From: an uncultured virus (IMG/VR IMGVR_UViG_3300042905_002851)
Lineage: Duplodnaviria; Heunggongvirae; Uroviricota; Caudoviricetes
Strand: one strand, 5' to 3'
Virus record (IMG/VR): IMGVR_UViG_3300042905_002851
DNA: 20,000 bases
Below, piece by piece: positions 6,199 to 8,101 of this stretch. The translations under genes and the position numbers were made by a program. Positions within the stretch are counted from its first letter, which is position 1, and every line of letters begins with the position of its first letter. The notes under the pieces are model-generated. The model searched no databases. It had not been told where the DNA came from and was given only the letters and a program-made list of their open reading frames with translations.

Positions 6199-6639
6199 TT
6201 AAGAACTTTTTAATATTTGAAAGTTAATAAATATACAAATTTCAATATAAGTCTGTAAAATATCGGAATCTAAAACAAATTGTTCGGATATTGAAAACCA
6301 TGCGACTTGTTCATTATTTAAATTTACAACCAATCCGGTAGTGTATCCATCAACTAAGAAATTAATTATGTAAATTCCGTCTTTAACATCAAAGGATATA
6401 TCACCCTCAACTTCAACACCATTACTTTTTATAATAAAAAATCTATTATTGGTTAAATCAATATCATAAAAACTATTAACTTTTCTATGTTCGTAGATAA
6501 GACTATCATTATTTATAACATTTAAAACACTGGTGTCTTGTCCGTAAGAGTCCATAACTTCAGATACCTTAATTTTAATAACTTGTGAATTAAAAAAATT
6601 AACAAAAAATAACGACAGAGTTAAAAAAAGTGTTTTCAT
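6199..6639 (-). CDS. Secreted hypothetical protein with Bacteroidota-style signal peptide
   Basis: Likely start MKTLFLTLSLFFVNFFNS/Q (Gln after cleavage site); the ORF-track extension runs into tRNA-Asp. Confidence 0.75.
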   Translation of the reverse strand: MKTLFLTLSLFFVNFFNSQVIKIKVSEVMDSYGQDTSVLNVINNDSLIYEHRKVNSFYDIDLTNNRFFIIKSNGVEVEGDISFDVKDGIYIINFLVDGYTTGLVVNLNNEQVAWFSISEQFVLDSDILQTYIEICIFINFQILKSS

Positions 6640-6663
6640 AATAGTTATTTTTTTAAAGTTTAG

Positions 6664-6736
6664 CGGTCCCGACGGGATTCGAACCCGTATCTCGCACCGT
6701 GACAGGGTGGAATTGTAACCATTCAACCACGGGACC
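6664..6736 (-). tRNA. trnD: tRNA-Asp(GUC)
   Basis: Acceptor GGUCCCG/CGGGACC, anticodon loop CU-GUC-AC, T arm ACGGG-UUCGAAU-CCCGU, G73; CCA not encoded. Confidence 0.93.
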
Positions 6737-6816
6737 AAGTTTATCAGTCTTTCCTGATCGTCACCCCTAACCCACAGGTATGAACCCGTATCGTAGTAAA
6801 GCTTGGTTAGCTATAG

Positions 6817-6888
6817 TAGTCCCACCGGGAATCGAACCCGACTTTCCAGGATGAAAACCTGACGACCTAACCGATAGTCGATGGGACC
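6817..6888 (-). tRNA. trnE: tRNA-Glu(UUC)
   Basis: Acceptor GGUCCCA/UGGGACU, UCAGG-UUUUCAU-CCUGG, T loop UUCGAUU. Confidence 0.95.
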
Positions 6889-6895
6889 AAAAATA

Positions 6896-6956
6896 AGGGT
6901 AGACACGGGCCTAGCTAGCCATCTTTCAGGAAAGGCCCTTACGAATATTCTACCCT
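6896..6956 (-). ncRNA. Unidentified ~60-nt structured RNA in tRNA spacer
   Basis: Nested perfect stems AGGGUAGA/UCUACCCU and GGGCCU/AGGCCC. Confidence 0.5.
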
Positions 6957-6961
6957 TTTAG

Positions 6962-7034
6962 TTGCGGGAACAGGGCTCGAACCTGTAATCTCGGCTTATG
7001 AGACCGAGCGGATGACCAATTTCCACATCCCGCG
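6962..7034 (-). tRNA. trnM: tRNA-Met(CAU), initiator-like
   Basis: CGCGGGA/UCCCGCA with C1xA72 mismatch; UCGGU-CUCAUAA-GCCGA anticodon arm; T loop UUCGAGC. Confidence 0.9.
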
Positions 7035-7039
7035 ATATG

Positions 7040-7113
7040 TAGTTAATACTGGACTCGAACCAATGACCTATTCCGTATCAGGGAATCGCTCTAACCAACT
7101 GAGCTAATTAACT
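7040..7113 (-). tRNA. trnI: tRNA-Ile(GAU)
   Basis: AGUUAAU/AUUAACU acceptor, GCUC/GAGC D stem, AUUCC-CUGAUAC-GGAAU, T loop UUCGAGU. Confidence 0.93.
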
Positions 7114-7188
7114 ATATTCTCGTCTTTCCGAGATGTCAATAGGGATATTTTGTGTACAATTCAGGACTCTCATATACTTCCTTAGTTG

Positions 7189-7342
7189 TAGTCAGGACAG
7201 GATTCTAACCTGCATGAACACTTTGAATTTTACCTACGCACAGTGAGGTAGTGTTCTTCATCATTCGCATTGCCTTTTCAAAGTGCACTTATTCAAGGTT
7301 GCCGTGCGTGTCACTATGTGTCTAACATTCCACCACCTGACT
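7189..7342 (-). ncRNA. 154-nt tRNA-like RNA: acceptor, D and T arms with a ~100-nt structured insert in place of anticodon and variable arms
   Basis: AGUCAGG/CCUGACU-A acceptor; GUG-GAAUGUUAGA-CAC Leu-like D arm; GCAGG-UUAGAAU-CCUGU T arm; no canonical anticodon arm. Confidence 0.75.
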
Positions 7343-7351
7343 ATTTTAATT

Positions 7352-7444
7352 TTGTAGTTAAGTAGCTGACACACACTCTCGTTTCACCATCTTATGTCAA
7401 CAGGTTAATGCACTTTACGAGTTTCCCGTTTCTTACCACCACAA
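7352..7444 (-). ncRNA. Unidentified ~93-nt structured RNA at head of tRNA operon
   Basis: Closing stem UUGUGGU/ACUACAA, hairpin ACGGG-AAA-CUCGU, 9-bp stem GUUGACAUA/UGUGUCAGC. Confidence 0.5.
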
Positions 7445-7452
7445 TATTTTAA

Positions 7453-7514
7453 TTTCAATGAACTTCTTATTTCTTCACGGGAGTAGGACACCAACCTCTC
7501 ACTTCCTACCCCCG
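7453..7514 (-). promoter_or_regulatory. rrn-like leader: 11-bp hairpin (7478-7514) then boxA-like GUUCAUUGAAA (7453-7463)
   Basis: CGGGGGUAGGA/UCCUACUCCCG stem; AAGUUCAUUGAAAUU matches the element at 472-482. Confidence 0.55.
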
Positions 7515-7526
7515 TTGTTTCTCTTA

Positions 7527-7558
7527 CAAATATATGGCGTTTGTTTTAAACTGCCAAA
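7527..7558 (-). promoter_or_regulatory. Bacteroidota-type promoter of the tRNA/ncRNA operon
   Basis: TTTG-N20-TATATTTG. Confidence 0.8.
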
Positions 7559-7580
7559 CATTTTATGAAAATTTTTTAAT

Positions 7581-8078
7581 TTATTTTATCTCAAATGCAC
7601 ATCTCATGATTTTTTTAGTCTTGGTGGCATCTTCAGGGTTTCCAATAACAACACCATCTTTGATTGTAAACGCATGTCGGTTAACAAGAACAAAGAATGT
7701 GCCTTTTGGGTTTTGTTTAACAAATGTGCCCACAGTCATGTTTCTTTTCTTTGTTTCACCTTTGATTGTCACATCATACATTAATGATCTTAACATTTGG
7801 TCATTATGTCTTATCCCAACAGGACGAATTTTTTTGCCGTTAACCTTAAACAAACTGTCACCCATTTTGACAAGTTTAGATACCGTTCCGTATGTACCAT
7901 TTCTTGGTTTTCTTCCAAATTCATCGGCAACATACCTGTGAGCATAATCATAAGATACTTCAAATGAAGACGCAAATGCTCTAACAACACAATCATTTCT
8001 TTCGCCTTTGGCGGTTGATGACTCAGTATATCCTTTAATTGCGTTTCCTGTGGCTTCGTATGGTAGTTTGTTTTTCAT
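7581..8078 (-). CDS. Hypothetical phage protein with NDCVVRA...HAF motif
   Basis: Start likely MKNKLPY (8078), 4 nt after a TATCTTTA element. Confidence 0.8.
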   Translation of the reverse strand: MKNKLPYEATGNAIKGYTESSTAKGERNDCVVRAFASSFEVSYDYAHRYVADEFGRKPRNGTYGTVSKLVKMGDSLFKVNGKKIRPVGIRHNDQMLRSLMYDVTIKGETKKRNMTVGTFVKQNPKGTFFVLVNRHAFTIKDGVVIGNPEDATKTKKIMRCAFEIK

Positions 8079-8101
8079 ACTGTAAAGATACAAATTTTTT
8101 T

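What the first reader, a model, noticed from the sequence alone, without database searches (positions are those of the whole stretch)
7189..7342. 154-nt tRNA-scaffolded RNA whose anticodon region is replaced by a possibly pseudoknotted ~100-nt domain
Seen: perfect 7-bp acceptor stem plus A73, Leu-like D arm, and T arm with atypical UUAGAAU loop. The insert has a 10-bp stem (GCACUUUGAA 7286-7277 / UUCAAAGUGU 7227-7218) enclosing hairpin UACCU-loop-AGGUA. That loop's CUGUGCGU (7243-7236) is complementary to upstream ACGCACGG (7309-7302), giving an 8-bp pseudoknot or alternative fold. There is no anticodon arm; it is too short for a group I intron and lacks tmRNA's G3-U70. Inference: a tRNA shell gives RNase P/Z processing and stability to a functional RNA payload (decoy, ligand or guide), possibly an undescribed class.
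Basis: partly seen in the sequence, partly recalled or inferred. Interest (0 to 1): 0.8.

Follow-up and report, generated by a model that had tools for sequence, protein, structure and literature searches.

The report
Phage tRNA shell carrying self-pairing RNA
A large freshwater virus of bacteria carries a gene for an RNA that keeps the upper half of a transfer RNA but holds, where the codon-reading arm should be, a separate knotted RNA module that appears built to pair with a second copy of itself and that other phages carry without the tRNA frame; its target is unknown.

Summary
The 154-nt element is real and is a composite. (1) Shell: a tRNA-Leu-type acceptor stem, D arm and T arm with leucine identity features; its odd T loop is compensated in the D loop. 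The same shell occurs in 367 distinct phage sequences with about 179 unrelated interiors. Phage T5 RNA1 is the precedent, and this scan noted the shell family before on other DNA. (2) Cargo (7214-7313): an autonomous ~100-nt RNA motif with no Rfam match, 120 distinct versions held. One loop holds a 6-nt palindrome in 53 of 70 variants, switching among 11 hexamers (shuffles 7.5), the signature of self-kissing dimers. The cargo sits inside shells (30 of 131 contexts), free between tRNAs, or after the major capsid gene of Porphyromonas phage005; near-identical phages lack it. Best reading: a non-decoding tRNA chassis that processes and protects a dimer-forming accessory RNA, probably a protein decoy (inferred). 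No intron signature. Transcription, charging, dimer and target are untested.

The parts
7189..7342 (-). Whole element: tRNA-Leu-type shell plus cargo, 154 nt
   Evidence: near-identical copies in other phage contigs; one RNA-library contig spans 7181-7346 with one difference
7336..7342 (-). Acceptor stem, 5' strand
   Evidence: 7 Watson-Crick pairs with 7196-7190; other cargo-bearing shells have four further acceptor stems, all paired
7318..7335 (-). U8, D stem and D loop of tRNA-Leu type (A14, A15 at 7328, G18, U19 at 7325, A20a)
   Evidence: A15 with U48 in 105 of 109 long shells with a canonical D arm
7214..7313 (-). Cargo: autonomous pseudoknotted RNA motif, about 100 nt
   Evidence: 120 distinct full versions, 244 copies in held loci; pair counts; no Rfam match
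7304..7309 (-). Pseudoknot, 5' strand
   Evidence: pairs with 7241-7236; 4 of 6 pairs change on both sides
7267..7302 (-). Hairpin P2 (7302-7300/7269-7267 and 7298-7295/7276-7273) that presents the palindrome
   Evidence: 5 of 5 counted pairs change on both sides
7283..7288 (-). 6-nt palindrome (10 nt in this copy, 7290-7281): predicted self-kissing dimer site
   Evidence: 53 of 70 distinct hairpins with a perfect central hexamer, 11 different hexamers; shuffles 7.5 +/- 2.6, maximum 19 in 2000
7251..7256 (-). Helix P1, 5' strand (partner 7221-7216)
   Evidence: 45 distinct strand sets pair 5.4 of 6 on average against 3.7 for swapped partners
7231..7250 (-). Helix P3 (7250-7246/7235-7231) with loop carrying the pseudoknot 3' strand 7241-7236; nearly invariant core
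   Evidence: no two-sided change in alignment A2; two divergent copies outside A2 (L563, L591) show one each, read by eye
7216..7221 (-). Helix P1, 3' strand
7197..7213 (-). T arm; A56 at 7206 compensates U19
   Evidence: positions 19/56 among 109 long shells: G-C 101, U-A 3, A/A 3, other 2
7189..7196 (-). Acceptor stem 3' strand and discriminator A73; CCA not encoded
   Evidence: A73 in 92% of 262 shells
7527..7558 (-). Bacteroidota-type housekeeping promoter upstream of the RNA cluster (-7 box at 7534-7527)
   Evidence: read; -7 consensus from passages of PMC9723704; the -33 box and its spacing are recalled

Best explanation
A non-decoding tRNA chassis carrying a portable, dimer-forming small RNA. 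Step 1 (inferred): the cluster is transcribed from the host-type promoter at 7558-7527 as one precursor with the neighbouring tRNAs. Step 2 (inferred from kept features): host RNase P and 3' processing see the acceptor-T stack and the D/T elbow, cut the RNA out and add CCA, giving a stable 157-nt RNA that leucyl-tRNA synthetase may charge but that cannot read a codon. Step 3 (shown by covariation): the cargo folds into P1, P2, P3 and a 6-bp pseudoknot. Step 4 (strongly implied by palindrome switching): two copies pair loop to loop into a homodimer. Step 5 (guess, about 0.35-0.4): the nearly invariant core binds a host protein as a decoy or sponge, two sites per dimer, giving an optional advantage in some hosts, as an RNA counterpart of a phage 'moron'. 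The shell is one of several interchangeable wrappings for this cargo; the others are a plain closing helix, or a place between a tRNA 3' end and a small hairpin.
For: Shell kept by selection with the cargo inside: five different paired acceptor stems among 15 further shelled copies, compensated elbow, A15-U48 in 105 of 109. A73, A15-U48, D-loop G18/A20a and a dispensable anticodon arm are the described bacterial leucine identity set (PMC9976931 passages; PMC2377443 abstract). Cargo structure: 98.1% of 1020 cells paired, 13 of 20 pairs change on both sides, slid controls 17-42%; pseudoknot variants came from scans that left it free. Palindrome: 53 of 70, 11 hexamers, while other shell interiors avoid 6-nt palindromes (45 of 109 against 71 +/- 5); such switching marks intermolecular kissing loops in OLE and GOLLD (PMC12286853 passage). 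Autonomy: 30 of 131 distinct contexts in a shell, 29 in a plain helix, 58 before a small hairpin, 14 other; shell state changes at least 3 times on the cargo tree; free copy after the capsid gene of phage005. Optional: absent from a 99% complete 292-kb relative and from 77 of 80 capsid relatives. Present unspliced in an RNA-library contig.
Against: No binding partner, phenotype or co-occurring gene was found; the decoy step has no direct evidence. RNA evidence is from assembled contigs only, DNA carry-over is not excluded, the upstream ORF is covered too, and no CCA end was seen. The window's copy has U19 where the described leucine set has G19, and a long variable arm in its usual orientation is missing, which matters for one LeuRS, so charging may fail. 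In the window's subfamily the palindrome could also be the top of an ordinary hairpin, and a 10-bp alternative stem could hide it. 12 of 70 hairpins have only a 4-nt palindromic core and 2 rely on central G-U pairs. Pseudoknot covariation rests on about three independent variant types. Single-sequence folding is not better than shuffles.
Confidence: 0.6

Rival explanations
1. The shell is only punctuation: a cutting handle that lets RNase P and 3' nucleases release the neighbouring RNAs, and whatever lies inside is a passenger trapped by recombination between identical shell ends.
Against: This interior is conserved with covariation and kept inside shells whose acceptor stems have changed on both sides; long interiors fold somewhat better than shuffles (mean z -0.82; 15 of 109 below -2, 4 above +1). 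The two readings can both hold for different shells.
Confidence: 0.13
2. The cargo is a small ribozyme (HDV-like variant or a new self-cleaving class) that trims tRNA 3' ends or cuts the capsid message.
For: Nearly invariant core, patchy distribution, 12 of 131 contexts directly behind a tRNA-like 3' end, as for theta ribozymes (PMC10879173 passages); helix order resembles the HDV nested pseudoknot.
Against: No equivalent of HDV P3; the C in the junction before the last helix is present in only 100 of 120 versions, whereas the catalytic C is required; cutting inside a shell would destroy a frame that selection keeps; an RNA-library contig spans the element uncut.
Confidence: 0.12
3. The palindrome is not an RNA-RNA contact but a DNA or RNA protein-binding site or a hairpin cap; the RNA acts as a monomer.
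For: In the window's subfamily the flanks extend the symmetry to 8-10 nt, as in a plain hairpin.
Against: A protein site would fix a sequence; here 11 hexamers alternate and the two central, adjacent bases stay complementary, which cannot pair within one strand.
Confidence: 0.1
4. An intron-containing tRNA gene that is spliced to a normal tRNA, or a decaying tRNA pseudogene.
For: The same shell is also used by ordinary tRNAs (ARAGORN of 106 shells under 100 nt, many with unclear anticodons).
Against: An anticodon-like stem joining the interior's two ends occurs in 3 of 110 long families against 2.4 by partner swap; the window's own ends do not form one; ARAGORN of 155 shells of 100-199 nt; joints in RNA contigs have short sides and one holds 36 other letters, so they are other shells; no RtcB in 5 related phage records; the cargo exists outside tRNAs.
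Confidence: 0.04

Closest known systems
Phage T5 RNA1 and RNA2 (GenBank AY543070, 30501-30644 and 32959-33083, annotated 'tRNA-like stable RNA with unknown functions')
   Same: In a phage tRNA cluster; RNA1 has acceptor stem, tRNA-Leu-type D arm and T arm around a replaced anticodon region; RNA2 has a T arm like this family's.
   Different: Different acceptor stem and unrelated interior: the cargo profile and model find nothing in the T5 or T4 regions. No pseudoknot with a switching palindrome is annotated there.
Phage T4 species 1 RNA (rnaC) and species 2 RNA (rnaD), AF158101 70908-71171
   Same: Small stable RNAs of unknown function in a tRNA cluster; rnaC ends in a T arm.
   Different: No tRNA-Leu-type D arm seen in rnaC; no sequence match to the cargo.
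ROOL, GOLLD and OLE RNAs (PMC12286853)
   Same: Phage or bacterial RNAs, ROOL and GOLLD often near tRNA islands, with pseudoknots and symmetric kissing loops whose palindromes switch; non-essential where tested; function unknown (passages).
   Different: The ROOL and GOLLD examples described there are 659 and over 800 nt and form cages; this cargo is about 100 nt with one such loop (two in the capsid-operon copies), has no Rfam match, and can ride inside a tRNA frame, whereas GOLLD sometimes holds tRNAs inside itself.
Theta (minimal HDV-like) ribozymes (PMC10879173)
   Same: Small pseudoknotted RNAs next to phage tRNA 3' ends.
   Different: No P3 equivalent, junction C not invariant, often inside a tRNA frame or far from tRNAs.
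tmRNA
   Same: tRNA-like domain joined to a pseudoknot-containing domain in place of the anticodon arm.
   Different: No G3-U70, intact D stem, no conserved reading frame, 154 nt; not called by ARAGORN or Rfam.
Engineered tRNA-scaffold expression of RNA cargo, and retroviral dimer-initiation loops (both recalled, no call)
   Same: Cargo placed in the anticodon position of a tRNA for processing and stability; 6-nt palindromic loop for homodimers.
   Different: Here natural, in DNA phages, with both features in one RNA.

Membership tests
Decoding tRNA | Anticodon stem-loop | tested here: not met
   None in the sequence; not called by ARAGORN or Rfam
T5 RNA1-like tRNA-shaped stable phage RNAs | Acceptor stem, D arm and T arm around a replaced anticodon region, in a phage tRNA cluster | tested here: met
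   Side-by-side anatomy
T5 RNA1-like tRNA-shaped stable phage RNAs | Accumulates as a discrete stable RNA | tested here: inconclusive
   RNA-library contigs cover it unspliced but cannot show ends, strand or level
Substrate of bacterial leucyl-tRNA synthetase | A73, U8-A14, A15-U48, G18, A20a | tested here: met
   Present in the window and in most shells; set taken
Substrate of bacterial leucyl-tRNA synthetase | G19-C56 elbow pair | tested here: inconclusive
   Window has U19-A56; 101 of 109 long shells have G-C
Substrate of bacterial leucyl-tRNA synthetase | Is actually charged | not testable with these tools
   Needs an aminoacylation assay
tmRNA | G3-U70 alanine determinant | tested here: not met
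   Pair 3-70 is U-A
tmRNA | Conserved resume codon and tag frame | tested here: not met
   A two-codon look-alike lies in the variable hairpin and is absent from other subfamilies
HDV-like / theta ribozymes | Invariant catalytic C in the last junction | tested here: not met
   C in 100 of 120 versions; requirement
HDV-like / theta ribozymes | P3 helix between the P2 5' strand and the P1 3' strand | tested here: not met
   No such helix in alignments A1, A2; HDV helix order recalled
HDV-like / theta ribozymes | Self-cleavage | not testable with these tools
   Needs an in vitro assay
Intron-containing tRNA | Exons rejoin to an anticodon stem-loop | tested here: not met
   3 of 110 long families against 2.4 expected; window's ends do not pair. 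Type II-style test 26 of 110 against 17.3 +/- 3.4 (max 27) shows only a mild excess of closing stems
ROOL / GOLLD / OLE | Match to the Rfam models | tested here: not met
   No hit in the window or in 7 loci with free cargo
RNAs with symmetric kissing loops | Loop palindrome that switches sequence, adjacent central bases covarying | tested here: met
   53 of 70, 11 hexamers
RNAs with symmetric kissing loops | Dimer or multimer shown physically | not testable with these tools
   Needs native gel, mass photometry or cryo-EM

The most novel reading that the evidence does not exclude
Large Bacteroidota phages run an RNA cassette system: a standard, leucine-chargeable tRNA chassis into which hundreds of unrelated functional RNAs are swapped by recombination at the shared ends. 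This member's cargo is a self-dimerising aptamer that also travels without the chassis between jumbo phages and oral or gut prophages and neutralises a host defence or translation factor; in the chassis it would be a two-headed aminoacyl-tRNA mimic.
Probability: 0.25. Interest if true: 0.92.

Novelty: new variant of a known kind. Interest (0 to 1): 0.72.

Why it matters
The tRNA-shaped stable RNAs of T4 and T5 are still annotated as of unknown function. This case splits the problem in two: the shell is a reusable frame, and at least one cargo is an independent RNA with its own covarying fold and a specific, cheap-to-test prediction (a homodimer through a switching palindrome). It shows in nature the tRNA-scaffold design used in laboratories, adds a 100-nt candidate to the short list of natural RNA-only multimers, and supplies a named host-phage pair (P. 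gingivalis ATCC 49417, phage005, reported active in culture) in which the cargo can be studied. The roughly 179 other interiors are an unexplored library of phage RNAs that tRNA finders skip.

Tried and rejected
No genome is held for the window; the nearest record G001 (80 kb, 28% complete) carries the element once. Rfam: no hit on the element at E up to 10, none on the cargo in 7 other loci; a weak manA hit in L318 (E 0.43) lies elsewhere. A loose scan for the cargo returned mostly chance matches and no new full member. Host-mimic idea: the cargo model found nothing in 5 and in 151 sampled genomes of the phylum of a Flavobacterium-labelled genome, while it rang on G001 at E 5e-19; only 26 candidates per genome were scored, so this is 'not found in those searched'. 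Packaging-RNA idea, raised by the place after the capsid gene: rejected, since 77 of 80 capsid relatives, one 99% identical in protein, have no cargo there, mostly a simple hairpin. Y RNA/Ro60 and repair-ligase links: no TROVE and no RtcB in 5 related phage records; a CCA-adding-type domain in 2 of 5. Generality of 'cargo also lives outside shells': among the other interior families only one single copy without a T arm turned up in held loci; two further flagged families were shells with divergent T arms, so autonomy is shown for this cargo only. Guide/spacer idea: interiors were compared only with held loci and one 3.6-kb shell-rich region with the phage collection, not with host genes. RNA runs: contigs only; depth not used. 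Literature: ten searches showed no description of this cargo. In PMC10690425 (10,006 candidate viral RNAs) six supplementary files and the held part of file 4 gave no motif hit, but files 1 and 2 could not be read, so the cargo may be there as an unnamed candidate. PMC12619734 (passages) gave no information on such RNAs.

Full report
Setting. The window is 25-37% G+C, packed with mostly unannotated ORFs, with hits to phage families and a type IX secretion signal domain. No whole genome is held. The nearest virus record is 80 kb and 28% complete, and a contig of 291,867 bp has the ORF at 7581-8093 at 96% identity, so this is a phage of about 290 kb. The RNA runs that hold the stretch are mostly lake and freshwater-sediment libraries. 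A Bacteroidota-type -7 promoter box lies at 7534-7527 (consensus from passages of PMC9723704). The element opens a row with tRNA-Ile, -Met, -Glu and -Asp.

The observation. The shell is as described. ARAGORN and Rfam do not call it. Folded alone it is no more stable than shuffles (z -0.50), so everything rests on relatives.

The shell is a large family. My parser found 262 distinct shells after two scans and 367 in all loci held later. Lengths run from 66 to 191 nt, leaving out one 266-nt parsing chimera. ARAGORN of 106 under 100 nt, many with unclear anticodons, and 1 of 155 at 100-199 nt. The 244 shells with a canonical tRNA-Leu-type D arm fall into 179 interior families, 156 of them singletons. 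Five large phage records hold 1 to 5 shells each. In one genome for each of 185,579 prokaryote species the exact 3' end occurs on 18 contigs, all from metagenome-assembled bins, 9 labelled as Bacteroidota groups; I read these as phage DNA. A73 is kept in 92%, A15 with U48 in 105 of 109 long shells, and positions 19/56 are G-C in 101, U-A in 3 (the window among them), A/A in 3, other in 2. [quoted passage not shown] T5 RNA1, annotated as a tRNA-like stable RNA of unknown function, has the same build. I took that lead from earlier notes of this scan, three of which describe this same shell family on other DNA.

The cargo is a separate RNA. A gapped pattern from the interior alone gave 87 viral stretches; with two further scans 120 distinct full versions and 244 copies were held, plus 7 partial ones set aside. 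On 51 representatives (chosen from 68 non-redundant ones) a 20-pair structure is 98.1% paired, 13 pairs change on both sides, 0 of 500 shuffles reach this, and slid registers give 17-42%; relatedness inflates such counts, as the tool warns. Helix P1 (7256-7251/7221-7216) varies freely and stays paired. P3 never changes on both sides in the alignment; two divergent copies outside it do, read by eye. No Rfam family matches, and no match was found in 151 sampled Bacteroidota-side genomes.

The palindrome. The hairpin between the P2 strands was in none of the search patterns. Of 70 distinct versions, 53 have a perfect 6-nt palindrome at the centre, 3 have one with outer G-U pairs, 12 have a 4-nt core and 2 scored zero (they are self-complementary only through central G-U pairs); shuffles give 7.5 +/- 2.6, at most 19 in 2000. 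Eleven different hexamers alternate. Other shell interiors have fewer 6-nt palindromes than shuffles (45 of 109 against 71 +/- 5). The two central bases are neighbours and cannot pair within one strand; PMC12286853 uses this pattern as evidence for intermolecular kissing loops in OLE and GOLLD (passage). The window's palindrome extends to 10 nt (self-duplex -12.9 kcal/mol). In this subfamily part of the symmetry could come from an ordinary hairpin top.

Shell and cargo combine and separate. Of 131 distinct contexts, a rule-based sort puts 30 in a tRNA shell, 29 in a plain closing helix, 58 before a small conserved hairpin (12 of them directly after a tRNA-like 3' end) and 14 elsewhere. Fifteen further shelled copies show five acceptor stems, all paired, so shell and cargo have been kept together for long. 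A tree of 76 cargo versions needs 6 changes of the shell state, at least 3 forced by well-supported branches (few columns, rough, direction unknown). A divergent group lies right after the major capsid gene of Bacteroidales siphoviruses, closed by a long helix and with a second palindromic hairpin; Porphyromonas phage005 is a named case, reported active in culture (PMC10367356 passages, which showed no mention of such an RNA). Only 3 of 80 capsid relatives have it. Among close kin of the window, copies 98-100% identical sit at four different places of an otherwise collinear array, and the closest relatives by the upstream ORF lack the element. It is optional and moves by exchanges at tRNA ends.

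Expression. Fourteen RNA runs hold 0.29-0.49 of the words of 6600-7600; I laid 4. One contig spans 7181-7346 with one difference, another 6853-7373. Joints that skip the interior have sides of 21-25 letters and one holds 36 other letters, so they are other shells, not splicing. These are contigs: DNA carry-over is possible, the upstream ORF is covered too, and ends cannot be read.

How it most likely works. Shown: fold, autonomy, optional presence, kept tRNA upper half. Strongly implied: homodimer. Inferred: cutting by host tRNA enzymes, CCA addition, stability, possible leucylation. Guessed: a decoy for a host protein, because a small invariant surface that is optional, found where transcripts are abundant and always given protected ends fits a trans-acting binder better than a cis switch. 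Rivals are punctuation with a passenger (0.13), a ribozyme (0.12; the junction C is present in 100 of 120, against the requirement in PMC10879173 passages), a monomer (0.10), and intron or pseudogene (0.04).

Novelty. The shell type is known from T5 and T4 annotations and from earlier notes of this scan. I found no description of this cargo in Rfam 15, in ten literature searches, or by sequence in the scan's notes; one note describes a self-pairing pseudoknot family between phage tRNAs whose relation to this one I did not test. Two supplementary files of PMC10690425 that I could not read may hold it as an unnamed candidate. Verdict: new variant of a known kind, interest 0.72.

Noticed in passing
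window 7135-7186 (-): Conserved spacer RNA directly behind the element; its loop also carries a 6-nt palindrome that switches among three hexamers in six variants, a second candidate self-kissing RNA.
   Followed up: partly
window 7114-7136 and 6742-6762 (-): Small hairpin with a fixed 4-nt lead-in and purine-rich loop, stem covarying; 55 of 79 distinct copies lie within 14 nt of a tRNA-like 5' end. No Rfam hit. Possibly a processing or antitermination signal.
   Followed up: partly
window 7350-7446 (-): Conserved multi-stem RNA with a closing helix and covarying inner helices, 19 variants in held loci; no Rfam hit.
   Followed up: partly
window 7470-7520, 6890-6960 and 6762-6815 (-): Three more conserved structured spacers of the array (12, 17 and 12 variants).
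   Followed up: no
L001, L093, L109, L047, L550 just 3' of shells or tRNAs: Elements that look like minimal HDV-type (theta) ribozymes in freshwater phages; judged by eye only.
   Followed up: no
L293:2951-3124, L570:937-1111, L598:226-404: Shells with a second insert, a hairpin in the D loop, besides the cargo; also in other interior families.
   Followed up: no
L591:1460-1635: Cargo inside a degenerate shell with an altered T loop, in a G+C-rich phage-like head-gene region unlike the other two phage groups.
   Followed up: partly
L658:4053-4172 (PP754928): A 39-codon 'hypothetical protein' is annotated over the cargo RNA in phage005; probably a spurious gene call.
   Followed up: no
L184 (6766-6867 and 9896-9996); L144 and L129: One contig carries two cargo copies with different loops; two contigs carry seven exact shell 3' ends each within 4-6 kb.
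   Followed up: no
G160:C1:74738-75148: A CCA-adding-type domain about 2 kb from a shelled cargo copy; present in 2 of 5 related phage records.
   Followed up: no
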